Below, in pieces: positions 3,001 through 47,137 of a stretch of 64,000 nt of DNA. The stretch comes from Balanoglossus misakiensis (taxonomy: Eukaryota > Animalia > Hemichordata), in the NCBI GenBank assembly GCA_040954595.2, contig CM082576.2, positions 19,329,028 through 19,393,027 of the forward strand, in the 5' to 3' direction. The position numbers and the translations under genes are program-made. Within the stretch, counting starts at the first letter, position 1. Each line of letters opens with the position of its first letter. The notes below the pieces were generated by a model. The model was not told where the DNA came from. It did no database searches and saw nothing but the letters and a program-made list of their open reading frames with translations.

Positions 3001-3158
3001 TTTAGTGTTTTCTAAAAAAACACCATTTTTGGGTTAAAAATGGCCAAAATGGCAATTTTGTCTTGAGTGGGGTCAATAAGACCATTTTTTACATAGAATG
3101 GACCTCTCAAACCTTCCTTACCAAAAATTCTGATTAACGGCATCTAGCTCCTGGACTA
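1..3158. mobile_element. Foldback-type non-autonomous DNA element with long inverted arms built from ~160-bp AT-rich subrepeats (left end outside window); possibly Academ-type
   Basis: 1-~370 is the near-exact reverse complement of ~2040-2425. Both arms (1-~830 and ~1380-3110) consist of related degenerate subrepeats around a spacer. The right end is CTGGACTA (3151-3158), i.e. TAGTCCAG on the minus strand, resembling the TAG termini of Academ elements. Confidence 0.65.
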
Positions 3159-11850: not shown

Positions 11851-12540
11851 AAAACCAACTGACACTTACATTCGTCCCTGTGGAACAAAAACCACACCTA
11901 TCGCCCTGTTGGTTAGTGTCTAATTAAATGTACAAAATCAATGACTTAGGCAGGTGCAACAGACGACCCCGCCTTTGGTATATCATTATGGTCCCATCCG
12001 TATATGCCCCCCCCCTCCCAAGCCAAAGCTGCATGCATCTGCTGTGGATGCTCACTAAGCAAAAGTAGGTGAAAGGTCACATAAGGTCGCCCACAACTTG
12101 ACGGGAAAATCGGACTTCATATTGATCCATGTGCAACAAATAGCACGCTACCACCCCTTTCATTGACCCCACAATTACGCATGCACATAATTATTGAGTT
12201 ATGCAGGTGTCACAGGTGACACCCGAATCGGGTGTATTATTTTAGTCCCATACAGCTGCATGTAGCTGCGTGCCGTTACGGGCGACCTGATAACCCACAC
12301 GGCCACCTGCGGGCCGACTCCCATACTGAACGTCCAGTTGCAACATCACGACTGAAGTAGGAACTTTTGAACGGCAACGAAGCCTGATCTCTGATTATTG
12401 CTGGTACCATACTCCTGTCGTGCAAGAAAATCACTGGTCTGCTGACGTATTTCAGCCAATTTCCCAAACTACTATCCACTACATGTGACTACAATGCTAA
12501 TGAAACCTCCCACAACATTAGCGACTTAGGGTCAAAGTCC

Positions 12541-18640: not shown

Positions 18641-19403
18641 ACCTTTCATGCTTAAACCCCTGTTCTTCTGTTATAAACTTTGAAAACCGTTCGTTTTCAG
18701 ACTGCAGATTGCTCGAATAACGCGGCACACTGCCGAAACAATAAAACAAATACTAGTGGGAGCTCATAAAATAAAATCGCTCAACCATTCCGTCGTCCTG
18801 AGTGACCTCAGCCACATTAATTCCGACGTCTTTTTAGGGTCATGAAAAAAGTCACAAATAAGGTATTTCCCCTAGGTCCACCTGAAGCAAAAAGTTTTCG
18901 TTTCGACTCCATCATTCCGAATAGTAAGAAAGCAACAAAATTGAAAAGACAGATGTAAAATGCAATCTCTCTCACGTGGTAACGTTTGTAACTATGGCAA
19001 ACACCGTGAGATATATTTTCTAAATTTGAGATTGAGTGAAAATTGAATATTTTCCAAATTAAACTGTATAAAACAGTGTAATGATATGGAAATGGAAGAA
19101 TTCAACAAAGAAATAATTTAATTTCAAATATGCCTACATACTTTGCCATTTTTTTCCAGTAGAAACAATTTTTTTCCTAATTTTCAATTAAATGACTGCC
19201 ACATGATCTTAGTTTTTCCATGAAAAAATATAACAATTATTTCGCTTGTCAGTGAAAATATATTTCTAGTGGTTGGAAAAAAATAGAATAAGTCAAATCT
19301 CTGAAAATCTGTCTTTATTCAAGAACAATAAAAAAAATTAGTGGGGGAAAAACCAAAAAATGAACACACACACTAAAATTGACATTTTCTATGTATTATT
19401 TAG

Positions 19404-21570
19404 GAGGGGATAGAATTTGTTGCCGCCATTCTTGGGAGGGGAGAAATGAGGGCATAGCATTTCGTGCCGTCATTTTTGGGAGGGGAGAAATGGGGGTATA
19501 GAATTTGGTGCCGCCATTCTTGCGAGGGGAGAAATGGTGGCATAGAATTTGGTGCCGCCATTCTTGGGAAGGGAGAAATGAGGGCATGGAATTTGGTGCC
19601 GCCATTCTTGGGAGGGGAGAAATGAGGGCATGGAATTTGGTGTTGTCATTTTTGAGATGGGAGAAATGGGGGCATAGAATTTGGTGCCGCCATTCTTGGG
19701 AGGGAAGAAATGAGGGCATGGAATTTGGTGCCGCCATTCTTGGGAGGGGAGAAATGGGGGCATGGAATTTGGTGCCGCCATTCTTGGGAGGGGAGAAACG
19801 GGGGCATAGAATTTGTTGCCGCCATTATTGGGAGGGGAGAAATGAGGGCATAGAATTTGTTGCCGCCATTCTTGGGAGGGGAGAAATGAGGGCATGGAAT
19901 TTGTTGCCGCCATTCTTGGGAGGGGAGAAATGGGGGCATGGAATTTTGTGCCGCCATTCTTGGGAGGGGAGAAATGAGGGCATAGAATTTGGTACCGCCA
20001 TTCTTGGGAGGGGAGAAATAGGGGCATGGAATGTGGTGCCGCCATTCTTGGGAGGGGAGAAATGAGGGCATAGAATTTGGTGCCCCCATTCTTGGGAGGG
20101 GAGAAATGAGGGCATAGAATTTGTTGCCGCCATTCTTGGGAGGGGAGAAATGAGGGCATGGAATTTGGTGCCGCCATTCTTGGGAGGGGAGAAATGGGGG
20201 CATGGAATTTGGTGCCGCCATTCTTGGGAGGGGAGAAATGAGGGCATAGAATTTGGTGCCGCCATTCTTGCGAGGGGAGAAATGGTGGCATAGAATTTGG
20301 TGCCGCCATTCTTGGGAAGGGAGAAATGAGGGCATGGAATTTGTTGCCGCCATTCTTGGGAGGGGAGAAATGAGGGCATAGAATTTCGTGCCGTCATTTT
20401 TGGGAGGGGAGAAATGGGGGTATAGAATTTGGTGCCGCCATTCTTGCGAGGGGAGAAATGGTGGCATAGAATTTGGTGCCGCCATTCTTGGGAAGGGAGA
20501 AATGAGGGCATGGAATTTGGTGCCGCCATTCTTGGGAGGGGAGAAATGAGGGCATGGAATTTGGTGTTGTCATTTTTGAGATGGGAGAAATGGGGGCATA
20601 GAATTTGGTGCCGCCATTCTTGGGAGGGAAGAAATGAGGGCATGGAATTTGGTGCCGCCATTCTTGGGAGGGGAGAAATGGGGGCATGGAATTTGGTGCC
20701 GCCATTCTTGGGAGGGGAGAAACGGGGGCATAGAATTTGTTGCCGCCATTCTTGGGAGGGGAGAAATGAGGGCATAGAATTTGTTGCCGCCATTCTTGGG
20801 AGGGGAGAAATGAGGGCATGGAATTTGGTGCCGCCATTCTTGGGAGGGGAGAAATGGGGGCATGGAATTTGGTGCCGCCATTCTTGGGAGGGGAGAAATG
20901 AGGGCATAGAATTTGGTACCGCCATTCTTGGGAGGGGAGAAATAGGGGCATGGAATTTGGTGCCGCCATTTTTGGGAGGGGAGAAATGAGGGCATAGAAT
21001 TTGGTGCCGCCATTCTTGGGAGGAGAGAAATGAGGGCATATAATTTGGTGCCGCCATTCTTGGGAGGGGAGAAATGGGGGCATGGAATTTGGTGCCGCCA
21101 TTCTTGGGAGGGGAGAAATAGGGGCATGGAATTTGGTGCCGCCATTCTTGGGAGGGGAGAAATGAGGGCATACAATTTGTTGCCGCCATTCTTGGGAGGG
21201 GAGAAATGGGGGCATAGAATTTGTTGCCGCCATTCTTGGGAGGGGAGAAATGAGGGCATGGAATTTGTTGCCGCCATTCTTGGGAGGGGAGAAATGGGGG
21301 CATGGAATTTGGTGCCGCCATTCTTGGGAGGGGAGAAATAGGGGCATGGAATTTGGTGCCGCCATTCTTGGGAGGGGAGAAATGAGGGCATAGAATTTGG
21401 TGCCGCCATTCTTGGGAGGGGAGAAATGGGGGCATAGAATTTGTTGGGGAGGGGAGAAATGAGGGCATAGAATTTGTTGGGGAGGGGAGAAATGAGGGCA
21501 TGGAATTTGGTGCCGCCATTCTTGGGAGGGGAGAATTGAGGGCATAGAATTTGGTGCCGTCATTTTTGGC
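19404..21570. repeat. Left subterminal tandem array, 44-bp unit, ~49 copies
   Basis: Unit GAATTTGGTGCCGCCATTCTTGGGAGGGGAGAAATGAGGGCATA; contains a 924-bp (21-unit) higher-order duplication. Confidence 0.97.
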
Positions 21571-22139
21571 AATTACTTTGAAGAAATGCTACTCTTCAAA
21601 GCTCCATTTGCTATAACTTTATGCAATGTTTAAAGCATTTTTATGGATCTTGTGCAAGATTATTTTTCAAATTCATGAAACAGGATAAAATGCCCAGTGT
21701 CCAGCTTATTAACACAATCTATATGTATATAGTAAGCGTTGTTATTGTGTAAAATTTGAATTCAACATTACCAATGGCTGTTGCACCGAAACAAGTTATG
21801 TTGACAAGTGGAATCCTGGGTATATAAGCATGCTGTTTTGAGTAGAGCAAGAAACTGCATTACTGGTAGGTAAACACAACAAAAGTCGAAATTTTAAAAT
21901 CTGAACACTCAATTTTTTGTTTAAAATCCCCTTTTTAATTTAACAAGTGAACAATTAAATTAGAGACAGCTTGCAGATAATATAAATGCTGTGTTAGTAA
22001 ATATTAAAACAACTTTAAAACTACAGTATAAATTATAATAGGACCCAAAAATGGAAAAAAATGCTCAAAAATTTTAACAAAACTATGGTAACTCAGATCA
22101 TGAAGAATGTCTTATAAGACAAAATAAATATATTGCAAA

Positions 22140-22400
22140 TAGAAAAAACAATATATCAGGACTATATCAATCTGACCAGTGTTTGTGGAGTTTCCGAGTT
22201 TTGACCAATTACACATTTTCTCAGCTTATTTTTGGAAATGACAACTTCATTTGAACAAACTCCCATCTACAGCCTGGCCTATATCTGTACACTAAATATC
22301 AAGGTGATATGCTAAACAATTTCCATTTGTTTGATGTGGACATCCATCCATCTATCCATACATAACAGATCCAATAATGTCCCATTGTATAATACACATA
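22140..22400. mobile_element. Probable short DINE-1/HINE-like insertion downstream of the passenger gene
   Basis: (CATC)n microsatellite followed by a GTCCCATT...AATGGGAC terminal hairpin. Confidence 0.4.
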
Positions 22401-22490
22401 TACCAAATGGGACCTGAAATTAATACATACATATCACTGTGTAGAGTTTACACACCCCCATAATGCGTTTTCCGTGACCCCACTCTATAA

Positions 22491-25400
22491 TCAGTCTGAG
22501 TCATCTACTTGCGATGCCCCGCTCCATCCAAATCTCTTTGTAGCTGCTGAGTAGATGTTGCCGAGCTGGTCTGCGTCGGTCTCCAAACAGATGCATGGTC
22601 TTCCTAACTGTAAAGCAGTAGTAAAGGCACTACCTGCAAACATAGTTGAGAAAAAAAAGTGAAAAAGTTATCAATCAATCATCATCACACAAGTTTTATC
22701 AGAGTGACTTTATTTCAAATTTTAACTTATTTTTCATTTTCATTGCTTTGTTACAGTACACTCTGACCACACATTTGTTTGCTTTGAAATAAAGACTTCA
22801 GTTTCTTTAACTGAGAGGATACCTGACATTCAGACATTGTTCTAATAAGTGTTTAATTAAATTTACTGTATTATAGGGATAATAAATAGCTTCAAAAATC
22901 TAAATTATGAACAATAAAAATGTATGATTTTTTGTTTGTTTTGACCTTCCTAAGACACCAAAGACATACATAACAAAACCATAACAATAACAATTTAAGC
23001 ATGATATCTTTCATTGCAATCACTTTTGAATTTCTATACAAGTACACTTTTACAGTAATGGTGCATCAGAAAATATTTTACAAAAACAACATTTATAAAA
23101 AATACCTTGATTTCTTGTTACGTCAAGCATCCATCTTCTTTCGGCACAGAAAACTTTGATAAGTTCTGACAAAAAATCCTCCATCTTGTCGGCCTTTTCA
23201 ATAACCCAGTGGTTATGATGGGGGCCATTGCCAAAATTTGTCTGCAATCTGTTAAACACCCCTGTCTCAGACCAGTAACCAACAACAATGCCTTTCACAG
23301 AATTCCACAAGGTCCTCGAAGCTATAAGAAGTGAAAATATGGAAGAAACACATTAGTCAAACACTGGCTTCAATATTTGTCAATCATTACAGCAGGAACT
23401 TTGTCATATGATGATAACTTTAATACAAGTTCATTTTTGGACTGCCACTGCATGAAAACACATTGAAATTTACAACAAATATTATAGCACTTACAAGATT
23501 TGTTGTACTGCAGGAAGTAGAATCCTTCTTCAACTTTGCAGCAGGTCTTCCTCATTATTTTCTTTACTTTTTCGATATCTGCTACTTCGCATAGTGCAAT
23601 AACATTATAATAGGGTATGCTGCAGTCCAGATTAATTGATTTAATAGTTTTTAGCTCTTCTGTGAAACTGTTTTCACACCAGTCCTGAAAGAGATAATAG
23701 AACATAGGTTGTAACTGATAATGAGACAGACACATTACACTGAATTATGAAACAATATGGAGTCCAAGACAGCAACTGCCTATATTAAAATGTTGGTCAG
23801 TAAAATTGAAAGTATTGCTTTAATTGTGGATTTTGACTTCTCATGTGTATAAATATAGGGGTTGTTGCAGTTGTTTTCAAAATACAAGGCCGCAAATATA
23901 GCCGATAATTGAAAAAAACTGAGCTATATACTGTCCAATTTTATGAAAATGATTAAGTAGAAGTTTTCTAGCTATTCTCAATGTAATTCTATGGAAAAAG
24001 ATGAATGCGTACACATTTGCACAGATTTCCCGTTTATGTTTTGCACATACATCCTTAATGACATATTTGAGAATTTAAAGTAAACTTTCCTTAATAGAGA
24101 GTTCTTCTTAATACTACAATAGACAGGTAATATATGATTCAAGTTGTGTTACACAAATTGCTATACGGTATATTTAAACTCACCTCAGGAATGCTGGTCA
24201 TCGTCAGTTCTGCACCATTAAATTCTGGACAACTTTCCCGTATTTTATCCAATGATAATGATGCTGTCTCCACATCTAGCACACAACCTCTGATGTTGTT
24301 TTCTGCTGTAAAAATGTTGTGGGCCGTAGATTCTTCAGGGACACCACCGGAGTCCAACATGTCTCGTAACTTTTTACACTCCTGCTGGAGTTCCGGTGGT
24401 GTTCCTCTGCTGAACTTCAGGCCCACAAATCTTGACAGGTATGCCCTATCTGCATAGGCTGGCAACTTCTCCTCCAAGACGCTCCATGGCATTTGGAGTT
24501 CCTTGATGAACGCCTCCTGAACCACTTTCATCTTGCGAACGTCTTTGGCTTCTCTGTTCATTTGCTGTAAATTAGTTTTTCCATCAACAACATCTTCCAG
24601 AAATTCACAAATGGTGTTCTCGTTTAAATGCACCAGGTTACTAAAAAGGTATACTGGTATGTCCGGTTTCACCATCAGATTTTTCTTCGTAACTTTCTGA
24701 CCAGCCAGTACTCCCGTTTCATAGCTCTCGAAAATTTGATCCAGTTTCACTGTAACAGTCTCAGGCTGTTTCGCCAGATTTAAAATTGTTTCCATATCTG
24801 TATCGTTCTGCAATAAATCAATAGAAGTATTATTACAAGGACAGTACACTTAACTCTGCCATATAACAGCAAGCCTTGTTACCTACATCCAAAATTGACA
24901 AGATACAACAAGAGAGACAGTTTGGACAATGGCAACATTCATGTGTCTACACAAAGCCTTACTGAAACATTAGTTGGATCCCCCAACCACATTTAGGTAA
25001 TTCTACATTTTAACAGAGAGCTTGTCTTTGGTAATATGCATGACAGAGGCCAGATAAACAATAAATTTCAGTGGATACTGGTTGACACAGGAGAAGGACA
25101 TTTGGTAAGGTGAACCATTTTCCCATAATATTTTTTTTTGTATTTTGGACTAAGGTGTCTTAGATCTAAATCCACTTACTATGGATTTTAATTTAGTGCA
25201 ACCAATCTTGGAGATAAGAACAAAATCTGTCCATGTCATTTGCTACATTGTAATATATTGGATTGCACCCCACTAATTAAACTATGATTTTTCCCAATTA
25301 AACTTACTTGTTGTAAGATGTTTTTACAGGATCTCCTCCATTCCTCGGAGGCAGATTTAACAGATGTCAGTCTGTCCCGACATATGTGGACCTGAAATAG

Positions 25401-28400
25401 GAATATGAAATAAAATTAAAATAATACAAAATCTAATTCTTGCCTTAATTGCCATGTACAATTTCTTTGCTCTTAATTTCTATGTAAACCGGCAAAGATT
25501 ATTCTTGACACAAGACATCTTTCAAAATGAAATTTTGAAAATTATGATTAAAATGGGTCCGTATTGAAAATGAAAAGATGAATAATTTTTGAAATACGTT
25601 TTTGATACTGTGTCTTAAATACAATGGAAAACCCATGAATTGACATTTCAACCCATTAATTGCTCACTTAACTTAAATTTAAAAATAGACCAGTGTGATG
25701 TATTAGTATTTAACTCGTTATTTCCTGAAAAATCCATGGCATAAACAACTGTTGCAAATTGTGTTCACTGTTTAATTAAGTCAATCAGATCAAGCCATTT
25801 TGGACTGTAACTTACCTTTTCTTTGGTACTGAGCTTGTGGACCAAATGTTGCATATCATTGTGGCGATTTGCAAGCCACATGGACTGTTCTTCACTCAGT
25901 GAACAATATATCTTGCATTGTCTTGACTTAAATAATTGCCTATCTTTATACTTCTCAGCAAGTTGCTTCGTTGCAGTGAAATTGTGTTGACCGCCTAGGA
26001 TGGTGTACTTGTATCCATTAACCTACATGACAATTGACACAAGAAATGAAATTGAGTTTAACTAGCACACGTGAGAAATCACTAATGTCGTTTGAAATTT
26101 TTTTGTTGAACTCTAATTCTGAAACTGAAAGCCATGCAATCAAGACAATTGTGGGGGTAAGCTTAGTGATATTTCATACTCACGTTATTCTTGTTGAAGT
26201 CATCCTTCTTAATGTCCACCATAACAACATATGGGCTGTAAGACTCATCAGTAAATTTCTCCATACTCTCAACCAGGGTCTTCACGAAAAAGTCGTCCAC
26301 TTTTCTTACTTGCTTTCCCAAGTTCAGATTACAGGTGTGAATACTGAATACACCTAAAAATAAATGTAAATGTAAATGTAATTAGCTTGAGTAGTTCACA
26401 TCATTGAATTCTCTTGGACTTAGCCAGCTTAATACATTAACAACCAAAATTCGTACTGACTAAAAGTTTAGGCCAAATAGTCATCCTCCCCATGTACCCA
26501 AACCAAGCTAGTCTACTCTCATGTGACATGTTCACTGAATGCATTATGCTTCATTGGTTATTTTGAGCTGTACAATCAGTTTTAGAGAAAAAAGACAAAT
26601 GTTTTCTCAAATGTGCACATTTCATTACAATTCAAACACATCTTTTTAATGTTACCACAAGGAACCTGAACACAAAATGCCAAAGCAATCATAAGCAGTT
26701 TCAAAACAAACTGATTGTTGATTAAAACAGCAGACAAATATTCATGTACAAACATAAAATGGGAGCTAAACAAAGATGTTTAGTTGCACCCACTGCTGGA
26801 AGAGTGAATGGAGCTGAAAGTACATGTATGTCTTGTAGTATGAAAGGACTGGATCATGACCCAGATCCTCTCATGTTTAAAGGGACAAAATCTCCTTCTC
26901 TCATTGTCCATCTTCCATTAATTATGTTTGATACAAGACACATGACTGTTTATGTTATCTACATGTGGATATATAGTGAATCAACGTTCGACCACACACA
27001 ACTTCCATCTCGTTTGTGGGATATGAGTGTAAAAATCTCGCCAAAATGAATAAATGGTAGAGACCGATTATTCATTTTGGCGAGTTTTTCACTCTCTTGT
27101 GTACAAGTGGTACAGAAATTGTGTGTGATCGATGGTGAGAGAGAGACTTTGTCACTTTAACATACATGACATTGCTTCTCAGGCTACATGTATACAAATA
27201 CAGCATCCTTACCAAACAAAACAAAGTAATTCATCTTAATATCTCACCTGGTATTGCGTGATCATTAACAATATTAGTCATTGGATCTTCTGTTAAATTC
27301 ACCGAGTCTATATGACTTCTTCTTTTTTTCCTTGTCAAATCTGGAATTACTTCACCTGAAGAAGGCCTTTTTTTTCGCGATTTACCAGCCGGGAAACTGA
27401 AATTGAATTGGATGAAATAACATGAAGATCTTCTTGAAAGGACAGTGATTCAATCTCTGGTAATCAGAGTTGTGTTTGCCACCTTGGCAAATGCTGTAAA
27501 CCATACACCTTAACAAAAACTGTTTCCCAAGGGTCTATGTCTCAGCCACAGCCAACTTGCTATCAAATATTGGCCCAGCATACAATGCCCAAAGTGGGCC
27601 TGATCTAGTTTTCTGTAATATTAACATACCAGTATATCATTGAATGAACTGTAATTCTACCAGAATCAAAATTTAGTGCTGTAGCAAGTTTGCAATGTGC
27701 ACTCAGATAAACTAGTCAGCTCAGAGACAGTCATATAATCATTTGATTTCTGAATGGGTTGGAACAAATTTTTGCAAGACAGACTGGGCGTATTTGCACA
27801 ATTTTCATGGGTTATAACTGTTAACAGATGACATATTTTAAACTTTGCTCCTGATTGTTTGTCAACTGACCCAAATTACAAACAATAGCTATGTGACACC
27901 GATCGGAAAAGGTGGGCATTTTTCCCATAATTCAAATTACAGTAAACGCCATATTGGAAATTCTGCCAACTTTCCCTCGATTTTGCAAAAAATTGCGCGA
28001 CTTATACATGGCGAAAATGTTTTTTTTTTCTGAAAGAGTGACCTCAAAGCTACAACTTACAAAAATGTAGAAATCAGCTGGACCGGATTTTCCCTTTAAT
28101 GAATTGCAACTTACCGAGCATTAGAAGAAAGCTCTGGAGATACTCTGTCACCAGATGTATTCATGGCTGAACTGGAATCACTTGAAGGCCTTTTTTTCTG
28201 TGATTTACCACCAGGGCACCTGAAAGTGAATTGGATAAAATAACATGTAAGACTTGAAAGGAATGGGATTAAATCGTTGGTACTCAGAGCTGGAACTGTT
28301 TGCCACAAACCATACACCCTTGGCAAAACTGTTTCTCCTGAGTAAGCACATATCATGTGTCTTTTTACAGATAATGGTCATCTCTGATATAATGTTGATT

Positions 28401-29496
28401 ATATGTGCGAGTTAACTTTGCCTATATGTAATGATGCTATGCAATCAGCAATGGTGCTTTTGCATAAGATTTACAAAATTTAAGAGAGTGGATGATTTAG
28501 TAGAATTTTATTTGATTGCACATGTATTCTAACTTAGATTGTGGTTTATACAAGCTAAGTGTACTTACGGAGAATTATCTTCTTGACAAGACGAACTTGA
28601 AGATTCTGTATCACTTGATGTATTCATGGCTGAACTGGAACAAGATGCAGATTCTATACCAACAGACTGCATGCTTATATCTGATTCATCACTTGATTCT
28701 CCTGGGGATACACTGTTTTTGTCAACAAGTTCATTAAACTTTGCTACAAAATCGACAGCCAGTTTGATGTCACGGAAGTTGCGGCAAAAGTCATTCTGAT
28801 GCCATTCAAATTCTCGGCGATAGAATGTGTGTTTATAACCTTCAAAGATAAGCTGAAAAACAAAAAAAATGTTAATGAATCATGGTTATTCATCTGATTT
28901 TTTGTGAGTTTACCTGTTGAGATCGCCAATTGAATACATCGAGTTTATCTCCATGGGTAAACAAACGTTTTAGAAAGCCAGCAGTTCAAGCGTTAGAAGA
29001 ATTTAATCGCAGCATTTTTGGAGTCGGTTATAACCAGTGAGGAGGTTGAAGTAGATAGGGAAAGAGTTTTTCCACCAGATAAAATCGAATTTCGACCGAA
29101 AAGCTGCGGACCGGACCGCAGACTCGTCATTTTTGGCTGTGGTGGACGCCGTAACGTACGGTGCGTAGACGTAGGGAGCACAAAACATGTACGCGGGGCT
29201 AGGGTGTGCGGGATAGTGTAGGAAAAATACATAGACTAAATAAAATTACAAACCTTTATGCCGTTGTGTCCAAGTGCATTTTTACTGTTAGTATCGACAA
29301 CTGCCTTCTGAACCGCAGACACCGGTTCTTTCACGTCCGATTCTCCTTTCTTTCGACCAGATTTGGCGAGTCTAACACCTTGTTTGGGACTGACAGCGCT
29401 CCTCTTGCCTGTTGTAGTAACGTAAACGTAAACGCCACCAGCAGTGTCGCCTTCGCCATCTTCTTTAACTAGCCACCAATGTCGTTTGTACGTCAT
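22491..29496 (-). CDS. Spliced passenger gene: Ser/basic-rich N-terminus, ParB/Srx-like domain, helical linker and degenerate beta-class N4/N6 DNA methyltransferase-like domain (at least 723 aa; ~804 aa with the putative first exon)
   Basis: Ten GT-AG exons join in phase without stops: 28852-28569, 28219-28115, 27396-27248, 26353-26184, 26022-25816, 25391-25308, 24807-24184, 23684-23495, 23321-23106, 22633-22491. First exon 29496-29254 is phase-compatible but uncertain. Motifs: QVRKVDDFFVKTLVESM..YTILGGQHNFTATKQL..WLANRHN; GAELTMTSIPEDW; FLSELIKVFCAERRWMLDVTRNQGSAFTTALQLGRPCICLETD. Confidence 0.8.
26881..27156. mobile_element. Kolobok-like MITE family, copy 3, in an intron of the passenger gene
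   Basis: TTAA|AGGGACAAAATCTC ... GAGACTTTGTCACT|TTAA; homologous to the copies at 16411 and 17329. Confidence 0.8.
27900..28098. repeat. Dispersed repeat fragment with a TTAA-type terminus; related copy at ~3990-4060
   Basis: ATTGGAAATTCWGCCAA...TATACATGGCGAAAA shared with 3990-4060; ends CCGGATTTTCCCT|TTAA. Confidence 0.5.
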
Positions 29497-31126
29497 ATTC
29501 TCCTCTCAAAAGCAGAAATGAAATGATGCAGTGCCACTTGAGCTGAAGCATTTTAAATCCTGCTCTGACCCCTGACATTTACTCACACTCACAGCTTGTC
29601 CAGGCCCCCACGATCTTTTCCAAAGCCTTGGGACTGTGACGTGTGAATGGACTGTGAAAGAGTGTAAAACTCCGGGCGACTTCCTGTGTAGCCTCCGTCG
29701 CCCCTGGATTGGAAGACGACCAAATGTTCCCCTCCCCGTGGCATTATGTCCGTAGTTTACTCCATATCCTGCATACACATAGATTGAATGCGTAGTTGTA
29801 GCTTCGCTTTGCAATTTCTCCACGTACCATGCCTGTCCTGCATGAACTGTGTTTGGTATTGCATCGATCAAAAAATTGTAACGATTTTTCGAAAAGTTGA
29901 AAATGTTTGCCATAAACTCGCAGCTGATCAGTGAACACGGCCCGGAAGTGTACATACATATATCGCTGTGCGAACTGGCCAACCTGTGAAGACAAAATCC
30001 ATTCGCACTACTAATTCTCACATCACATCAACGACTGATCAGCTGGCTGATCAACCGGAAATTCACCACATGTGCATAGCAACCGGCCAAACCAGCTGAT
30101 TGCCGCGCGCGCACAGTGAACGCCTGTGGAACTGAACACTTGATCTTTCGGGACCATACCCATCGGTGTGTGCCTTTACTGGGACAACGGTCGTCTAGAG
30201 ATTAAAACGTCTATCTTCATGTATGTATGAACTTCTATATCAGTTCCTCATACGCGTAATGTTGCTGTAGTAACTGTTATTTGTAAATGCAGCCAAAAGT
30301 TCTCTTTGAATAGGTATGTGTGGAGGAATAGCTCGGGTCACAATATCTTGCACACCCCCATAAATTAATGGGATCAGTCAGGTCATGCTGGCAGAGTCCT
30401 CGAAGTTTTGCTGACTTTTGGTGAATGCTGAAATTGCCGATGACACCAACTGGAGTGTATTCCCGAAACAACAGGTATGTGATTCACTTTAATTTCTCGA
30501 AGTCAAGTATATCATTTTGACTCTCTGTCATTGTATATTACTATTACCACGGATGGATGACCGCGAAGTCACAGTTGTGAAATTTTTGACTGCCAGGCTG
30601 TGTACACAGGTCTGTATGCTCCCGGCGTTATGAAGCATCGATTCCCACTGACTGTAGCCTGATATTGATATAACATGCTACTCATATGATATAACATGTT
30701 ATATCATATCAGGCTACAGTCAGTGGGAATCGATCGCCTATGGTTTAACGCCGGGAACACACAGACCTGTACGCAGGGCTTAGGCTGAGTGATGCCTTTC
30801 TACTTCCGGGCTTCGATCATGATCGGGTGATATGTACATGTTGTGTGATTTCTTGAGGTGTGTAGGTGGGCCACGCTAATTACATGCTTCATTATTTCGG
30901 AATCACAGTGGTGACATCACAAAGCTTTGAATGTGAATTTGTGAAGTTATTGGAAACCAAACAAAATGTGTCTGTTGATGCAGGCCTCAAGGTTCAACCT
31001 GGCTGTAGATGGGGTTTTGTTCAAAGGAAGTTGTCATTTACTCATTGACAACAATATTTAAGTGGACGGTCAAAACGTGTTCCGTATGTTTACATGACAA
31101 TATTATTTCTTGCCCCGGTAGGTGTC
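29497..31126. promoter_or_regulatory. Divergent intergenic/5' UTR region between the passenger gene and the transposase
   Basis: Head-to-head gene arrangement; CpG-richer than the introns; oppositely oriented CCGGAAGT (ETS-like) sites at ~29942 and ~30803; candidate non-coding exon donors at ~30313 and ~30475 and an acceptor at 31121. Promoter function is inferred. Confidence 0.45.
30602..30771. repeat. Imperfect ~170-bp palindrome (MITE-like)
   Basis: CAGGTCTGT..CCCGGCGTTA..ATCGATTCCCACTGACTGTAGCCTGATA mirrored by TATCAGGCTACAGTCAGTGGGAATCGAT..TAACGCCGGGA..ACAGACCTG. Confidence 0.8.
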
Positions 31127-34100
31127 ATGGATTCCTCTTGTTCTACAGTTGTAGAAGAAAGTTTTTCATCATCTGAGGGGATGACAAGTGTGGAAGAAAC
31201 CGATACATCTGTAGAAAACTCTTTAAACTCCTCTGTATTGACAGTTGTGGAGGGACTGAATGACTCTGTGACGTTAGATATACCTGATAATTATCATGAA
31301 ACCTCAAGTGAAAATGATGTATGTATTCTCGACCCGCAAGAACCTGAAGTGGCCTGTTCATCTAGCATGTCTTCATCAGACATTGGTGATTTTGATGGGA
31401 GTTTTGGTAACTGTGAAGAAGATAATATTGTCTCATCCAGTCCTGTGAAGAGGCGACGCTTTTCTGCACCACTCAGGGAGCCAACAGAAGTTTTAAAGAT
31501 GGCCTGCTGTGGGGACAAGTGTATGACCAGTCTCTCGCAAAATGACATCATGGCATCAGAACAGTTCTTTAAGACATCACTTGATGAAGCAGAGCAAGGA
31601 CAGTTTATCCTTAAACAAATTCAGCAGCATTCATACACATGTTATGGGAAAACAAGATCAAAACTTGTTTTGAATTTGGTCATACGTGGAAGATGTGTAT
31701 GTGAAGTAGCTTGGTGCAATGTATTTGACACATCTTATCACAGATTTACAAAGTATAAGAAATTAGTGAAAGGTGGTGCCACTAGTGTTTTGCATGGAAA
31801 CAGGGGAAAAACAAGGATGCAGGAGAAAACCTCACGATCAATAGCATGGATGAGGTTCCACTTTGAACGGATCGGTGATTACATGCCACACAAGAACATT
31901 GTTCGCCTTCCTACATTTCTTACCAAGGGTGATCTGTGGACACGTATGAAGACTCAGTTGGCTGAAGGATTGTTCTTTTCACACATATCATATGGCTACT
32001 TCTGTGATATATGGAGAAAGCACTTGCCAGAATTTCGTACTGGTGTGGTAAGTATAAATTCTTTGAGGACTTTAGTCTTTTCAGCATGCTATAGACAGTA
32101 GAACAAAATAAGAAACTGGTTGACACACACAACTAGAGAGCTGAAAAATAGGCAGCCACTTTTGATGTGCCTTGACTTTTCTACCTTTTTATGAAGTTTC
32201 TTTCCAAGAAAATATTGATAATTGACTGCACCCTTTACTATGGAGAAATCATTTGAAAATAGGGGCTTGTAAATAAAATGCTGCTGATTGCAAGAGAGTA
32301 AATTTTATATCTTTTGTTGCAGACCTCAGACTTTTCTGAATGTGGTGATTGTGCACAGATACGGGGTGCTATCTCAAAAGCAGCTACTGATTCTGAACGA
32401 CAAAACCTCATGAAAGTTCGAGAAGTTCATGAGAAGAGGGTTGAGTAAGTTACAGTTCCTTGATTTAATCCAGCTACATAAGTAATGATGCGTGTAGATT
32501 TCACAAAGTACATTGTAATTTGTATGTTACATTGTCTCAGTACTGGTACTCAGCACTCAGTACACTGTTAAAAATATACACACTGAGAAAAACTTTAATT
32601 GACATAGGACACTGTTTAATTTCAGAACAGAAAGGGCAGTCTATCATGATGCCAGGGAAAAGGCAGTGCGACAGCCAGATGATTTGCTTGTCATGATAAT
32701 TGATGGCATGGACCAGAAAAAGACATATTTTCCAAGGTTACTCCGAGAGAAAAAGGACACAGAAAACCTAGGAAAGATCCCTATGCATGCAACAGGTGTG
32801 TCTACCTATTTATTCTAGGAAGTACATGTACATGTACCTGTAATCTGTGCTGTGTAAAGATATGTGGTTGTAAAATGTGTTTTTTGCGTGTTAAATGTGT
32901 AAACATTGTAAATGTTGACAAATGAATTCTAGTCTGGACTAGAATAAAAATATCAACAATAACATTGTAGTTGACATGTGAAGACACAGGAGTATAAAGC
33001 AATTCAGAATTGATGCGCTAACCTTTTTAATTTTATGTTTTCAGTCTTTTTAATTTTTTATTCAGTTTTGGTCAAGAAAAATTCAGCTTGATGGTGGCTT
33101 GTTCAAATCTTCACATCCACTATGGTATAAAAATGCAAGAGCCCATTTTAATGGCTTGTATGTTAAATATATGTTTCTTAATTTTTTTGCAGGAAGTTTG
33201 ATTCATACTAATGTCCCTGAAGGCAAACTAGCAGTAATGCGACTTGACATCCACAACTTTCCACATGATTCGAACATGACTATCAATAATATCATGTGGA
33301 ATTTGGTTGATAACAGAGAAAGGCTATCAAAAAAGCTTCATCTTCAATTAGACAACTGCTACAGGGAAAACAAAAATCGGTATCTTCTGTCCTTTGCATC
33401 TCTGTTGGTGGAGTATGATATATTTGAAGAGGTAGGTCATTACATGATGTTGAGAAATTTACACACAAGCACATACACTCACACTGTTTTGTTTATACCA
33501 TTACCAAGTAATATAAGTGAAGTACCTTCCCTTAGCAGTAGTCGTTTCAGTAAAAGTGTGCAAGTTACTACAATAGAAAAATTGTTAGTAAGATTTGTTT
33601 TTAATGTGTAATACGAGTACAATCAGGTGATGTAAGGCTAGATAATGGGTTGGGTTAGGAAAGAAGACCATCTTGTCATCTGTAATATTGATTTTTATCT
33701 TCTGTTTGTTAGGTGGTGATGAACTTTCTACCCGTGGGTCACACTCATGAAGGTAAGTACTTTATTAATTTCGTTTAATACATGTCAACAATTAGTATTT
33801 GAAGAGCCTGAAAATATCCAATGATTCATGTGAATTTGTTAGATTATGATTTTCCACATTCACTACATACCTGATACATGTGATTTACAGGTCACTTGAA
33901 CAAATTATCTGTTAGTATGAAAGTGGTGCAAATATAATATAAATGTAATAGATGCCTAAAATTCCTCATTTTTGATCAAACTAATCATGTGTGCCATACT
34001 ATTTATTCTGCAGACGTTGACCAAATGTTCAGTCGAGTGTCTACCGCACTGAGGAAAGCAAATTCCTTCACCCTGGCAGGTATGAATAATGAATTTTCTA

Positions 34101-36929
34101 TGTCAGGGGTTGCTTCCCGTCCTTCATATTTGTCAGGGGAACTCCTACTTTATGTGAAGGGTGGGTAGACTAGGGGTCCTAATTCTTAATTTATTATCAC
34201 TATTAAATATCATTTGCCTGGTATTGACTCCCTCTGAGAAATCACTATTGCAATTCCTGTCTATATAGATTCAGCTAAGGATTTGAAAATAAACAAATAC
34301 ATTGGAGTCTATGATACGAAAACTAAATGCTGAAGAGAAATTAGAGACAGACATTTGGCTACAGTGTCATTGATGAAAATTGAACGGGGCCCTTTACCCT
34401 CATACCTGTTCATATTTCAGATCCCATCACGATCAAAATGCTGACAATGTATCTTGGGATTTCTTCATTTCAGAATTAATGCACAATATTCATGACAGCT
34501 ATACACCATCAATTAAGGTCGAAGAAGTGAAGTATCTCTTCAATGTGAAAGAATGGCTAGAGCCATATATGGCTGGTAGATTCGGGGGGCATTCAAAACC
34601 CCACAATTTCAGATTTCGGAAATGCAGTGGACGAGCTCGGATGCACTACAGACGATGGTCGACTGATGCCTGGCAACCAACTTATGATGAAGACAATGCA
34701 GATGCACAAGGGCTGGTATGCCTTGAAGTAAGTTATACTGATATACATACTGTACATCATGTATCCTGGTTGACCAAGGATTTTTGTGCAATATTTTGAC
34801 TTTTGCATTTTTTATGAAATCAGAAATTTCTCCAAAGTTTAATTGTTGATTTATTTTGTAAATTTCAAAACAATGCCACATAAAGAACGCTTGAAAACAG
34901 CGATTTTTAGTACTGATACTGTGACACTAGGCATACGTATGGATTAAATGTTTAGAAGTAAAACTGCCATTAGCTTCTAGTTTTTGTCCGGTTATACTTA
35001 TACAGTTTTCATGCTATAACGGTTATGCCTTTAAGAACAAGAGTGTCTAAGCAATTTTATAATGTTTTGTTTTCCGACAATGACACCATAGAACCGGTGT
35101 GACATACCTGATCAGGATTGAAGACATAACAGATATCCTGCTTATAATGAAAAGAAAATGCACTATTGCTATTTTTTATTTGTAGATAAACATCCCACCA
35201 ACACTGTGAAGTTGTGAAAACAGACATACATTGAAACCTGAAACGTGTTATTTCACACACCTCTCACATCAATACACCTGTCTACGAAAGTCAGATAAAA
35301 GTGTTAAAAATCAGTGTAGTTTAAAGTTCAGATTTCACTCGTGTATTTTGTGACACCTTTGGTTTTGAGTTGTTCAGTCAATCTTAAAGTATTCAATTAT
35401 TTAATTATTTTCACAGACTGTGCCAGATGTTAATGTTGTGCCCAGCATGGTTGAACCATCCCTCCTGAAACTTGATCTCCAGAAGATAAGAAATGACATT
35501 CCAGACAAATATGGCAACTATATGCCCCCAGCAACTATGGAACATCTGAAAAATTTTATAAATAGCATCGAGCAGTATGGACAGGTGAGTTTGAATTACT
35601 CATATGGCTAGTACTCTTGTGTTATAACAGGCAAGTGTATGGCAACTTCATGCCTTTATGTAGAATTTTCTCAGTATGTCATTTTGCCATGTTTGACACT
35701 GCAAAATAGTGTTATACAAAATAATGATGATCCAGAGTTTACTAATATCACACAACTGTACTTAACACCTATTCTCATAAACTATTTTCAGGATTTGTCT
35801 ATCGTCCTTATAAAGTTATTGCAATTTAAACAAATTAATTAAACAACAAATCATCTTTAAAACTTTGATCTACAATTGTGAGAAAACTAAGATGTCTTTC
35901 GAAACACGTTTTTGCTGAGTGACATTATTATTACTGTTTTGTTGGTTTATACTTTTTCAAGTAAATTTTAATAAGTTCCTGAGTTTTCCATTAATGTATA
36001 GTCCTTGCTAAAAACCAAATGATTTGCGATTAAAAATATTTTGCAGCAAACCTCACAAGCTACCTACATTAGCTGTTTAAAAGATTAATAAAGGTCAGCA
36101 CACACATACAAGGTCACATGCTGATTTTGTTTCGAATTGTCACTCTACACTGACTATAGGTAGCAGAAGAACCTGATGAGTGGCCTCTTCAGCAATTAAT
36201 TGATGACGCTAGAAGGAGAAGAAGTACAAGACTTGAAACTGAAGGTGACATACCAGAAAATGTTCAAAGAATTCAAGAACGGATGGAATCTGTGTGTCCT
36301 ACAGTAAGTGCCTGCACATTGAGTTTGCAGCGGTGTTTACTTTCTTAATAGAGATTTAGCATCTGTTTGCCATCATGTACATCGAAGCAGGAGCTGTTTT
36401 TAATGTTGGGAAAGTCTACATGTCTGTTCATATGTTCATGTGTGTAGATAGCCACAAAAAGTCCTCATATTCTAGTGAATTTCTTTTTTAAAAATAAACT
36501 GTGATTATTTAGCAGATAAAGTAAGCTCTAGCTCAAATGATTATGTGAAGCTATTTTGTCTTACTCTAGGTAACTATTGGAAGGCAAGGACGGCAAGCCG
36601 AAACAGCTGAAGTTGTAGATGATTTCTCAACATTGGCTGTAGGAATGTTTGTTGCAGTATATTGCCCTGAGTCAGAGGAGGTACCTCAAATAGGAAAGGT
36701 GGTCAATAGGGATGATACCTCTTTTACCATACACTGGTACCAGGGCAAATGGAACACATCATGGAAACCATGCTACCTCACAAAAGGACGAGCAAAAGTG
36801 CCATGGGAGGACAAGCAAGATCTGGCTGCAGCAATCCTGTGGGACTTTGACTTCAACGGCAGGGGAATGCTAAGCAAAACAACAAGGACTATCTTGGCAG
36901 AAAAGTATGAAAGATTTCATGCTGTATGA
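31127..36929 (+). CDS. Intact 10-exon Sola-like (DUF7869-type) DDD transposase, 827 aa, with a C-terminal Tudor/SH3-like domain
   Basis: Exons 31127-32047, 32323-32444, 32626-32795, 33193-33431, 33713-33752, 34014-34079, 34474-34727, 35417-35584, 36160-36303, 36570-36929 join in phase (2484 nt). Motifs: CCGDKC, VCEVAW, CGDC..H, IIDGMDQKKT, LQLDNCYRENKN, FLPVGHTHEDVDQMFS. Confidence 0.9.
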
Positions 36930-37334
36930 ATGTCTGTAACAAACAGATGTTGAAAGGAAACCCTTCTTGTTTAACTTTACAGCTGTCAGCAGTCCTTATT
37001 AACCAGCGTAGACTGCCCATTATCAACTTGATGTTTATCCTTATCACTCTACATTATCAGGCATTGGAATGTGTAAACTACCTAGTAATGGCTGTGCCAG
37101 AGAGAAAACAAGTGTCTATTGTCAATGTTTATCACTATTGTCAATGTTTATGACAGGTGATAAACAAGTGGAATTCAATACAAATTAACACTTCTGGACC
37201 CTTCAGTGTCCACTGTAACTTTGCTGGTTGTATATGTCATTAATTTTTTTGTTTCCGAAGTATGACTGCATTCAGTGTTTGATTGCATTTAATTCATTTG
37301 CTACTGCATCAGCCACAATGTCCACGCAATCCTC

Positions 37335-38592
37335 AACCAATTCTATGCCCTCATTTCTCCCCTCCCCAACAAATTCTATGCCCTCATTTCTCCCCTCCCA
37401 AGAATGGCGGCAACAAATTCTATGCCCTCATTTCTCCCCTCCCAAGAATGGCGGCACCAAATTCCATGCCCCCATTTCTCCACCCCAAGAATGGCGACAC
37501 CAAATTCTATGCCCTCATTTCTCCCCTCCCAAGAATGGCGGCACCAAATTCTATGCCCTCATTTCTCCCCTCCCAAGAATGGCGGCACCAAATTCTATGC
37601 CCTCATTTCTCCCCTCCCAAGAATGGCGGCAACAAATTCCATGCCCCCATTTCTCCCCTCCCAAGAATGGCGGCAACAAATTCCATGCCCCCATTTCTCC
37701 CCTCCCAAGAATGGCGGCAACAAATTACATGCCCCCATTTCTCCCCTCCCAAGAATGGCGGCAACAAATTCCATGCCCCCATTTCTCCCCTCCCAAGAAT
37801 GGCGGCAACAAATTCTATGCCCCCATTTCTCCCCTCCCAAGAATGGCGGCAACAAATTCTATGCCCCCATTTCTCCCCTCCCAAGAATGACGACAACAAA
37901 TTGTATGCCCCCATTTCTCCCCTCCCAAGAATGGCGGCAACAAATTGTATGCCCCCATTTCTCCCCTCCCAAGAATGGCGGCAACAAATTCTATGCCCCC
38001 ATTTCTCCCCTCCCAAGAATGGCGGCAACAAATTCTATGCCCCCATTTCTCCCCTCCCAAGAATGGCGGCAACAAATTCTATGCCCCCATTTCTCCCCTC
38101 CCAAGAATGGCGGCAACAAATTCTATGCCCCATTTCTCCCCTCCCAAGAATGGCGGCAACAAATTGTATGCCCTCATTTCTACCCTCCCAAGAATGGCGG
38201 CAACAAATAGTATGCCCTCATTTCTACCCTCCCAAGAATGGCGGCAACAAATTCTATGCCCCCATTTCTCCCCTCCCAAGAATGGCGGCAACAAATTCCA
38301 TGCCCTCATTTCTCCCCTCCCAAGAATGGCGGCAACAAATTCCATGCCCCCATTTCTCCCCTCCCAAGAATGGCGGCAACAAATTCTATGCCCCCATTTC
38401 TCCCCTCCCCAACAAATTCTATACCCTCATTTCTCCCCTCCCTAACAAATTCTACGCCCCATATCTCCCCTCCCAAGAATGGCGGCACCAAATTCTATGC
38501 CCTCATTTCTCCCCTCCCAAGAATGGGGGCACCAAATTCTATGCCCTCATTTCTCCCCTCCCAAAATTGGCGGCAACAAATTCTATCCCCTC
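37335..38592. repeat. Right subterminal tandem array, 44-bp unit in inverted orientation, ~29 copies
   Basis: Unit TATGCCCTCATTTCTCCCCTCCCAAGAATGGCGGCAACAAATTC is the reverse complement of the left-array unit; both arrays end outward in the same variant GAGGGGATAGAATTTG. Confidence 0.97.
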
Positions 38593-39709
38593 ATTCTCCT
38601 CATTCACCATGATGCTATAATTACCAAACTTTCCGCAAAAACTAATTGAATGTACCGGATTTTTCCAAAATGTGCTAAATTTATGGTAAAAAAATACATT
38701 ATTAGTTGTGATATTTCTATATGATGTGAATTACAGAGATTTTGTGGAAGAAAATGTACAAATTAAGGTGTCACATTGATTTTTGCATTTTGTTTATGAT
38801 AAAAGTTAATAAACAGCATATCTCATTTTTAGAAAATATATCTCACGGTGTTGGCAATCACGGTACGTGTTCAGTACACAGACAGGGAGAAAAGTTTCCC
38901 CATGCAATACATGTGTTCAGTAAGGTTTGACCTTGGTTTTACTTTGTACCATGATCGCCGCTTTCTAAGCATGGATGAACGACGGCGGTCAGACCCAATC
39001 GAACCCTTTCATGTCAGATGACCACGGTATCTCCAGTGTGAGATGACATTTGACAAACCATTTGATTTCGACAAAATCTTCGCGTCGTCAACGCGTCGCA
39101 TACCAGTCGCATATCGGTATTTACCCAATCATAAAAGTTGGAAATTCGGGAGACTCGATCTGCAACCAAGTTGAGAGTAAATTTTGACGTTTGACTATTG
39201 GCAAGTAAACAGGTTACACAATGACTTGTCGGTTTTTCCTCCGTCATGGTCGTTCTTGACCCAAGTGTCCTTCCTTGACATTTAGACACACCTTGCGGTA
39301 TGACCTTGGTGGTCATGTGCAATTAGTTTTCTTGTATAAGACGCTTTTCATGCCGGGGTAGACGACTTGTGCGTGGATCATCAACATTTCAGTGATATTT
39401 CAACGCAAAGTTTTAGCAATATTGAGAAAACAGGTAGTGAGGTGTCAAATGCATATCAATGTACGAAAATTAGGTCAAGCCACCCGACAGCAACCGCTTT
39501 CACACAGTGTCGGACGTTGCACGGAATGTGAAACGTTACACTGCTTCGGCCGTTCACATGCACCTGGGCGTGGTTTTGATTGATGGTCAAACGCCCCCAC
39601 GTACTTTGGGCGTTTTCAATGGTAAATGTGTCGTATTGATCGAAACCTTGCCGTAAACACATTTTTTTGCTGAATCAACATTCAGAGTTCAGCCGTCTAG
39701 TTAACGAAG

Positions 39710-40209
39710 TGTTACGCCCTCATACACCCGCATTTTAACCGTTTTGTTTGGTTGCGTAATAAATAAAATTATTGTGGTCCCTGGAACCAAAATTATAGCG
39801 TACCTCACGTGTTGGAGTCAAGCGGCGATGGCGTTGGAATTTTATTACCTAGATACAACAAATACTATGACGATATTATGATTTTATTACCTAGAGATGG
39901 ACATCGTATGATCCAGCATGAAGCATTGAACTTTCTAATTTTAGAAAATGACTCATTGTAAGCTGATGCAATTTTGACTTTAAAATATGAGTATTGTACA
40001 CTTTTGAGTTGATTCAACTTGGAGGAGCCTTGAGTAACGGTTCGATGATTAAAGCCTGAGTTGATGATTTGAAATTGAACACTTTGTGTCCGCCTCAGTT
40101 ACTGAAAGTATTACGATCCTGAGTGGTACCTCGACTGACTTTAGACTCTACGAACTGACAGTGAGTAAGAGTCTACATCGAAATAACGACGAATTAGGAG
40201 ACGGTAACA
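39710..40209 (+). repeat. 5' LTR
   Basis: TGTTACGCCC...GACGGTAACA; appears identical to the 3' LTR; preceded by GAAG. Confidence 0.97.
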
Positions 40210-40212
40210 AAT

Positions 40213-40228
40213 TGGTGGAGACATCCGG
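40213..40228 (+). promoter_or_regulatory. Primer-binding site (tRNA-Ala-like)
   Basis: TGGTGGAGAC 3 nt after the LTR; complementary to a tRNA 3' end ...CUCCACCA. The tRNA identity is inferred. Confidence 0.75.
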
Positions 40229-40250
40229 AGTAACTGAGCGACACGAATAT

Positions 40251-45721: not shown

Positions 45722-45913
45722 GAAATATGTATTTGAGCAAGAAAAGAATGAAAATGCGTCATAGTCGTAAAATTCATCTCTTTTGTCAACATCATACTCG
45801 TTTTTCTCTAGAGATTACTCCTATATAGCGTGATCCTCATCTTAGATAGTCGCGATGCCGCGTATTTATTGCACCCCTTTTCTCTTACGTAAGCCTAGTG
45901 TCCACCGCATGAC

Positions 45914-46963: not shown

Positions 46964-47092
46964 CGGTTTGCTCGTAGAATTATGAATAGATTGTTGAACA
47001 TGTCACTATTTTTCCCATATATTTACTTTAGAAATAAGAATTATGTATTTTAGAATTCGTATACATATTATGAGGCATTTTAATTGAAATTG

Positions 47093-47137
<45 letters not shown>

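What the first reader, a model, noticed from the sequence alone, without database searches (positions are those of the whole stretch)
22491..24330. Degenerate beta-class amino (N4C/N6A) DNA methyltransferase fold split over four exons
Seen only after splicing: GCVLDVETASLSLDKIRESCPEFNGAELTMTSIPEDW, and later FLSELIKVFCAERRWMLDVTRNQGSAFTTALQLGRPCICLETD. Known: beta-class N6_N4_Mtase proteins have ..DLxxT(S/D)PPY (motif IV) first and L.rlI..s..gd.VLDPFxGSGTT..AA..lGR..igiE.d (motif I-II) at the C-terminus; the order and spacing match here. The catalytic SPPY reads SIPE and FxGxG reads TRNQG, so it is probably catalytically dead or repurposed as a DNA/SAM-binding module (inference). Amino-MTases of bacterial origin are rare in animals; bdelloid N4CMT is one known case.
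Basis: partly seen in the sequence, partly recalled or inferred. Interest (0 to 1): 0.88.

Follow-up and report, generated by a model that had tools for sequence, protein, structure and literature searches.

The report
Animal transposon carries dead phage-type methyltransferase
The four exons encode the last domain of an intact accessory protein inside a 20-kb animal DNA transposon; the domain is predicted to have a bacterial DNA-methyltransferase fold but lacks the catalytic residues, so the protein likely binds the element's own repeat-lined ends rather than methylating DNA.

Summary
The four minus-strand exons join by GT-AG introns into the C-terminal domain of an 11-exon, 804-aa open gene. 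A Ptychodera flava RefSeq protein matches it at 72% over 438 aa without a gap. That protein's model matches beta-class amino-methyltransferases (CcrM Z 17.6). Motif IV and the SAM glycine loop are lost in this copy; none of 60 aligned relatives has a canonical [DNS]PP[YFW].

The domain is fused to a ParB-like domain. The gene lies head-to-head with an intact DUF7869 transposase gene in a 19.85-kb element with 24-bp terminal inverted repeats, a target-site duplication and inverted 44-bp arrays. All three P. flava transposase hits have a relative of this gene at the next accession number. Relatives occur in hemichordates, a sea cucumber and a priapulid.

Most likely it is a catalytically dead, phage-derived ParB-methyltransferase fusion serving the transposon by binding its ends (inferred). 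Red-algal Plavaka transposons carry the same two domain types on separate genes, so this is a new variant of a known kind. Expression and activity are untested.

The parts
19001..38851 (.). Whole element, 19.85 kb DNA transposon (likely limits)
   Evidence: 24-25 bp perfect inverted tips flanked by a direct repeat, TGGCAA (6 bp) or GGCA (4 bp) depending on the parse; the 6-mer occurs 2 times in 15,900 bp of flank
19001..19032 (+). Left terminal inverted repeat
38820..38851 (-). Right terminal inverted repeat
19404..21569 (+). Left subterminal array, 44-bp unit, about 50 copies
   Evidence: same unit as the right array, inverted
37330..38592 (-). Right subterminal array, 44-bp unit, about 28 copies, inverted
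22491..29496 (-). Accessory gene, 11 exons, 804 aa: N-terminal beta-rich domain, low-complexity linker, ParB-like domain, helical region, methyltransferase-fold domain
   Evidence: 10 of 10 introns GT-AG, one terminal stop; 53-72% identical to P. flava RefSeq proteins
24184..24807 (-). Exon 8: helical region and start of the methyltransferase fold up to motif IV (24195-24184)
23495..23684 (-). Exon 9: methyltransferase fold, central strands
   Evidence: E 5.9e-11 to the family profile
23106..23321 (-). Exon 10: shortened target-recognition region and motif I strand
22491..22633 (-). Exon 11: end of motif I loop, motif II, stop
25816..26353 (-). Exons 5-6: ParB/sulfiredoxin-like domain (GGQH at 25995-25984)
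   Evidence: matching region of relative P0116 aligns to PadC Z 10.8, rmsd 2.9, 97 residues; Foldseek ParB E 2.8e-6
31127..36929 (+). Transposase-like gene, 10 exons, 827 aa, DUF7869
   Evidence: PF25273 E 1e-22; open frame, 9 of 9 introns GT-AG, 73-89% identical to P. flava proteins
29497..31126 (.). 1.6-kb spacer between the two start codons, likely a two-way promoter
   Evidence: gene orientation; CpG observed/expected 0.76 against 0.35-0.50 in the genes; promoter role inferred

Best explanation
The four exons encode the C-terminal domain of an intact accessory protein carried by a 19.85-kb DNA transposon; the domain is predicted to keep a beta-class amino-methyltransferase fold but lacks the catalytic and SAM-loop residues, so the protein likely acts without enzymatic activity by binding the element's own 44-bp end arrays. 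Shown: gene structure, open frame, element anatomy, loss of the motifs. Shown through close relatives: the fold and the ParB-like domain. Inferred: the fusion descends from a phage-type ParB-methyltransferase; the ParB-like and helical parts load on the arrays; the dead fold gives extra DNA grip or a dimer surface; coating the arrays either brings the two ends together for the transposase or shields them from host silencing.
For: Open 804-aa, 11-exon gene facing an open transposase gene, between inverted arrays and TIRs with a target-site duplication. 3 of 3 P. flava transposase sequences retrieved have a relative of this gene at the next accession number on a contig of the same length: XP_070548740/41, XP_070553722/23, XP_070550176/77. 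Fold: CcrM Z 17.6, rmsd 3.3, 194 aligned; the top 11 rows are bacterial-type or bdelloid amino-methyltransferases. ParB-like domain: Z 10.8. Motif loss. The methyltransferase domain is the least conserved folded part against the closest relatives: 150/225, against 147/190 for the helical region and 112/122 for ParB. Best viral fold match of the full-length relative is a 494-aa phage protein labelled ParB/Sulfiredoxin, E 3.3e-12 over 621 columns. Precedents: red-algal Plavaka ParB-like PAG3 beside tandem arrays; VANC proteins target tandem repeats; DIRS1 carries a dead adenine-methyltransferase domain.
Against: No binding, expression or activity data for this element. The window's own spliced protein was not folded; the 72%-identical relative stood in, with an alignment that included less degenerate members. 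The ParB motif has GGQH followed by N, not the arginine recalled for CTP-binding ParB, so clamp-like loading is uncertain. The phage match has rmsd 25 A (domains not in the same relative position), and the Atlas leads all score under 0.9. Transposon linkage is indirect (accession order). It covers only 3 of 16 P. flava relatives with accessions; the one Saccoglossus transposase found does not pair with a known relative. 8 of 8 relatives outside this subfamily with a complete motif I keep G-x-G, which suggests selection for SAM binding elsewhere in the family.
Confidence: 0.5

Rival explanations
1. The methyltransferase domain is a vestige under relaxed constraint; the protein's job is done by its ParB-like and helical parts, or the gene is a passenger of little use to the element.
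For: Lowest identity of the folded domains (67%). Motif IV varies widely in the family: S 19, D 15, H 7 of 60 at the first position. About 14 residues before motif I are missing against P0119.
Against: The domain is full length and gap-free against the P. flava protein, with 382 of 438 positions similar. It models at mean pLDDT 86.9. The same altered motif IV is kept in both.
Confidence: 0.2
2. The family is a non-canonical but active methyltransferase (6mA or 4mC on the element, or on RNA). Members with D-x-P and an intact SAM loop would be active; this copy is active or only recently inactivated.
For: 15 of 18 rows in the supported clade holding this copy have D at motif IV. 8 of 8 complete motif I loops outside this subfamily keep G-x-G, and 7 rows keep the QK segment. 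3 of 11 proteins scanned pass Pfam's N6_N4_Mtase cut-off.
Against: 0 of 60 have an aromatic residue at the fourth motif IV position; changing S and Y of SPPY abolishes bdelloid N4CMT activity (PMC8885841). Only 2 of the other 42 rows have D. This copy lacks both D and the first glycine.
Confidence: 0.17
3. This copy is the inactive partner in a heterodimer with an active relative from a sister element family, as METTL14 is to METTL3.
For: Several divergent subfamilies coexist in P. flava. The fold also matches METTL14 and MTA9 at Z 10. Inactive partner subunits are described in PMC4738411.
Against: Each element seen carries one such gene; no member with a canonical active site was found.
Confidence: 0.08
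4. It is a host gene, possibly domesticated, that merely lies next to a transposase.
For: Ten introns, one of which appears shared with distant relatives (36 of 60 show V after motif IV, as expected from read-through of a GT donor).
Against: Shared TIRs, target-site duplication and arrays enclose both genes; the pairing recurs on three different P. flava contigs.
Confidence: 0.05

Closest known systems
Giant Plavaka DNA transposons of red algae with PAG2 and PAG3 (bioRxiv 10.1101/2025.02.11.637652; passages read)
   Same: 17-19 kb cut-and-paste elements with accessory genes carrying a PF01555 methylase domain and a ParB-like domain, next to tandem arrays; binding of the element's own repeats is proposed there too.
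   Different: There PF01555 is joined to SET and ParB to a 2OG oxygenase, on separate genes, with an EnSpm transposase. Here both are in one protein, the transposase is DUF7869, the host is an animal and the active site is lost. Homology to PAG2/PAG3 was not tested.
Beta-class amino-methyltransferases (CcrM, M1.HpyAVI, M.MboIIA, M.PvuII, M.RsrI; Pfam PF01555)
   Same: Fold and motif order.
   Different: No [DNS]PP[YFW] and no intact glycine loop in this copy; fused to ParB-like and helical domains; intron-containing.
Bdelloid N4CMT (PMC8885841; passages and section 6 read) and Marchantia DN4MT1 (bioRxiv 10.1101/2021.02.12.428880; passages read)
   Same: Bacterial-type beta-class domain in a eukaryote, with introns in the bdelloid gene; fold match to N4CMT Z 15.2.
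   Different: Those are active SPPY host enzymes, N4CMT with a chromodomain; this is transposon cargo without SPPY. N4CMT scores below several bacterial enzymes, so there is no sign of special kinship.
Phage ParB-methyltransferase fusions (ParB-terminase loci in PMC4738411; passages read)
   Same: ParB domain followed by a PF01555 domain.
   Different: Longer helical middle, extra N-terminal domain, degenerate active site; origin inferred, not tested by a rooted tree.
DIRS1 retrotransposon dead N6A-methyltransferase domain (PMC4738411) and VANDAL VANC anti-silencing proteins (PMC5735166; abstract read)
   Same: Transposon-borne inactive methyltransferase fold; accessory protein acting on the element's tandem repeats.
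   Different: The DIRS1 domain is a PCIF1-like enzyme of another group in a retroelement; VANC is a plant protein that was not compared here.
Sola3 DNA transposons (label recalled; the defining paper was not held)
   Same: Transposase motifs DGMDQ, LDNC and GHTHED are recalled as Sola3-like; the 4-bp parse of the duplication fits Sola's 4-bp rule (given for Sola2 in PMC3627910).
   Different: The duplication is not AT-rich and may be 6 bp; no reference Sola3 sequence was available for comparison.

Membership tests
Beta-class amino-methyltransferase (PF01555) | Rossmann-type amino-methyltransferase fold | tested here: met
   On the 72%-identical relative P0113: CcrM Z 17.6, rmsd 3.3, 194 aligned; Foldseek E 5.5e-8
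Beta-class amino-methyltransferase (PF01555) | Permuted order: motif IV first, SAM motifs I-II last | tested here: met
   Motif IV at aa 619, motif I at aa 749-758, motif II at aa 773; family profile aligns to beta-class enzymes
Beta-class amino-methyltransferase (PF01555) | Catalytic [DNS]-P-P-[YFW] | tested here: not met
   SIPE in this copy; 0 of 60 aligned members canonical
Beta-class amino-methyltransferase (PF01555) | SAM-binding glycine loop (F-x-G-x-G) | tested here: not met
   First glycine replaced in this copy and its 2 closest relatives; kept in 8 of 8 complete outside members
Beta-class amino-methyltransferase (PF01555) | Pfam gathering score | tested here: inconclusive
   Single exons 0 of 4; closest relative P0001 no hit; 3 of 11 family proteins pass; the spliced window protein was not scanned
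Beta-class amino-methyltransferase (PF01555) | Methyl transfer to N6-adenine or N4-cytosine | not testable with these tools
   needs an assay
ParB/sulfiredoxin-like domain | ParB/Srx fold | tested here: met
   On relative P0116 (52/122 identical in this domain): PadC Z 10.8, Srx Z 9.1, KorB Z 9.0
ParB/sulfiredoxin-like domain | Arginine patch GxxR for CTP binding (motif recalled) | tested here: not met
   GG[QC]H followed by N, C, T or S in 13 of 13 rows covering it
Cut-and-paste DNA transposon | Terminal inverted repeats with target-site duplication | tested here: met
   24-25 bp TIRs, 6- or 4-bp duplication
Cut-and-paste DNA transposon | Intact transposase-type gene | tested here: met
   827-aa open frame with DUF7869 and three acidic motifs; transposase role of DUF7869 is recalled
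Cut-and-paste DNA transposon | Dispersed copies in the host genome | tested here: inconclusive
   No genome held; gene pair recurs on 3 contigs of P. flava by accession order
Sola3 | Transposase groups with Sola3 references | not testable with these tools
   No reference set; defining paper not held; no paper names DUF7869
Sola3 | 4-bp AT-rich target duplication (TTAA recalled) | tested here: inconclusive
   GGCA or TGGCAA at the outer tips; no duplication at the array ends

The most novel reading that the evidence does not exclude
A lineage of animal DNA transposons carries a phage-derived ParB-methyltransferase fusion, and its members that keep D-x-P and the SAM loop (Saccoglossus, Holothuria) are active enzymes that write 6mA or 4mC on their own ends as a transposon-controlled counter-silencing mark. 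That would be a second, independent entry of bacterial amino-methylation into animals, with this copy a dead offshoot.
Probability: 0.15. Interest if true: 0.88.

Novelty: new variant of a known kind. Interest (0 to 1): 0.6.

Why it matters
Bacterial-type beta-class amino-methyltransferase domains in animals were reported for bdelloid rotifers, where the authors found no other eukaryotic homologues (PMC8885841, section 6). Here the domain type appears in hemichordates, a sea cucumber and a priapulid, and at least in the hemichordate lineage studied it is transposon cargo. It gives a testable case of how large transposons may counter host silencing or hold their ends together. It names specific relatives to assay for 6mA or 4mC activity. 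It also warns that automatic 'DNA methylase N-4/N-6' labels on these animal proteins probably overstate activity.

Tried and rejected
No whole genome is held for this window, so copy number and empty alleles were not examined. RNA run search: no RNA holder listed. Word-based protein search with exon 8 among longer proteins: 1242 candidates, none passed; the unfiltered search then found 111. Pfam on single exons gave no methyltransferase hit. A 7-sequence profile (A3) gave 6 weak unrelated PDB matches and no methyltransferase. Atlas search with exon 8 gave no usable hit. Viral-contig scan: 18 pattern matches, none confirmed. Metagenome scans with two single proteins: 44 and 41 pattern matches, none confirmed, so no DNA context for distant relatives was read. 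Phage tblastn with P0119: 31 records, weak and C-terminal only. The N-terminal domain and the helical middle got no clear fold match in the whole-model searches; they were not folded alone. First guess of the start codon at 29131 was replaced by 29496 after comparison with P0002. Array ends as element ends were rejected as less likely because no duplication flanks them; the spacers between TIR and array are not significantly alike (27 of 300 shuffles score as high). Earlier findings of the scan: nothing in three look-ups. Literature searches that showed no description of this animal family in their listings; subscription journals and Repbase entries are not covered.

Full report
Observation. 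The quoted peptides lie on the minus strand in four exons: 24807-24184, 23684-23495, 23321-23106 and 22633-22491. They are the last four of 11 exons (start 29496, stop 22491). All 10 introns are GT-AG, and the 804-aa frame has only the terminal stop. A search of 1.84 billion representatives with exon 8 returned 111 proteins at E<=0.001. RefSeq XP_070548741 of Ptychodera flava aligns to residues 365-802 at 316/438 identity with no gap, so an independent gene model uses the same junctions. Whether that model rests on RNA evidence is not known to me. A profile from 7 relatives outside this subfamily scores the spliced domain 133.5 bits against a shuffle maximum of 7.0, and picks exactly these four exons out of 2189 window segments.

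Fold. None of the four exons hits Pfam N6_N4_Mtase alone. Of 11 family proteins scanned, 3 pass the Pfam cut-off and 1 scores below it. The 11-sequence family profile matches 9 PDB sequences, all modification methylases, best CcrM at E 3.5e-7. A smaller profile did not. The model of XP_070548741, which shares the altered motif IV and a similarly altered loop, has mean pLDDT 86.9. It matches CcrM (Z 17.6, rmsd 3.3, 194 aligned), M1.HpyAVI, MboIIA, BceJIV, PvuII, RsrI and N4CMT, then the MT-A70 group at Z 9-12, then drops to 6.2. The window's own spliced protein was not folded. The full-length Saccoglossus relative (pLDDT 79.3) gives Z 23.0 to CcrM and, for residues 199-327, Z 10.8 to the ParB-like PadC.

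Active site. This copy reads SIPE at motif IV, has lost the first glycine of the SAM loop, and lacks about 14 residues including the QK segment. Across 60 aligned members the first motif IV residue is S in 19, D in 15, H in 7, and none has an aromatic fourth residue. Many of these rows are single-exon fragments from unnamed assemblies. In a 60-row tree this copy and its P. flava twin sit in a supported 18-row clade where 15 have D; 2 of the other 42 have D (midpoint root only; rows under 130 residues or without the motif were dropped). Of 19 longer rows, 3 (this subfamily) lack the first glycine, 8 keep G-x-G, 2 break off within the motif and 6 do not reach it. So this copy is very likely dead, canonical catalysis looks lost across the family, but SAM binding may persist in some members.

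Context. A second gene runs on the plus strand from 31127 to 36929: 10 exons, 827 aa, open, with DUF7869, and 73-89% identical to P. flava proteins. Both genes lie between inverted arrays of one 44-bp unit. Outside the arrays are 24-25 bp perfect inverted tips at 19001 and 38851, flanked by TGGCAA (or GGCA under the other parse; both give the same empty site). No duplication flanks the array ends. I take 19001-38851 as the element; nesting of an inner element inside a short one is not excluded. All 3 P. flava transposase sequences retrieved have a family member at the next accession number on a contig of equal length. This is indirect evidence and covers 3 of 16 P. flava members; the neighbours of the rest were not retrieved. 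For Saccoglossus, Holothuria and Priapulus members linkage is untested. The host is not given; the closest named relatives are hemichordate. The label Sola3 for the transposase is recalled, not tested.

Mechanism. I commit to a non-enzymatic accessory role (0.5): the ParB-like and helical parts likely load on the 44-bp arrays, the dead fold adds DNA grip or a dimer surface, and the coated ends are either brought together for the transposase or shielded from host silencing. The gene bodies are CpG-poor (0.35-0.50 observed/expected against 1.11 in the neighbouring young Gypsy element), which is compatible with host methylation but does not prove it. Conservation falls from ParB (112/122) through the helical part (147/190) to the methyltransferase fold (150/225), as expected if catalysis is no longer selected. 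Rivals: vestigial domain (0.2), non-canonical active enzyme family (0.17), inactive heterodimer partner (0.08), host gene (0.05). A phage origin is suggested by the best viral fold match and by Atlas clusters pairing ParB_N with N6_N4_Mtase; these are leads only.

Comparison with what is known. The closest system is the giant Plavaka transposon of red algae, 17.4-19.1 kb, with PF01555 on PAG2 and a ParB-like domain on PAG3 beside tandem arrays (bioRxiv 10.1101/2025.02.11.637652, passages). Its supplements, which hold the PAG sequences, were not seen and bear on whether the proteins are homologous. Dead methyltransferase cargo is known from DIRS1 (PMC4738411, passages), methyltransferases from viral Mariner elements (PMC3627910, passages), and repeat-targeting accessory proteins from VANDAL (PMC5735166, abstract). 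Bdelloid N4CMT (PMC8885841, passages and section 6) and Marchantia DN4MT1 (passages) are active host enzymes with SPPY. PMC10294476, PMC4455052, PMC5751038 and PMC5199201 were seen as passages on Sola and did not define Sola3 features. Ten searches listed no description of this animal family; the library lacks subscription journals and Repbase.

Verdict. It works like a transposon accessory DNA-binding protein; it has the beta-class fold but fails the catalytic membership tests. New variant of a known kind, interest 0.6.

Noticed in passing
window 39710-47814: Gypsy-type LTR retrotransposon with gag, pol and a chromodomain; LTRs 100% identical over 502 bp and a GAAG duplication, so a very recent insertion.
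   Followed up: partly
window 48091-64000: AT-rich satellite of 78-79 bp units with higher-order periods, CpG-rich for its composition (observed/expected 1.84).
   Followed up: no
window 27361-27482 and 28184-28306: Exons 3 and 4 of the accessory gene come from a tandem duplication (80% alike), each with a short basic stretch that may be a nuclear signal.
   Followed up: partly
window 26877-27127, 23797-24058, 27919-28024: Small repeats inside the accessory gene's introns match repeats in the left flank, so the element has picked up secondary insertions.
   Followed up: no
window 24184 (intron after motif IV): 36 of 60 aligned relatives show V right after motif IV, as expected if they share this phase-0 intron; this hints at an old animal family.
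   Followed up: partly
window 28569-29496 (minus): The N-terminal ~120 aa form a conserved beta-rich domain ending in helices, shared with hemichordate relatives; no fold was assigned.
   Followed up: partly
Atlas clusters: The two best feature matches (0.89, 0.86; leads only) are unnamed eukaryotic clusters, commonest phylum Streptophyta, hinting at plant counterparts.
   Followed up: no
window 12492-13163 (minus): Reverse transcriptase fragment in the left flank.
   Followed up: no
window 1-3090: Degenerate 160-170 bp repeats in direct and inverted arrangement.
   Followed up: no
window 22236-22277 and 30998-31039: A 42-bp inverted match (90%) between the accessory gene's 3' side and the region before the transposase start; unexplained.
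   Followed up: no
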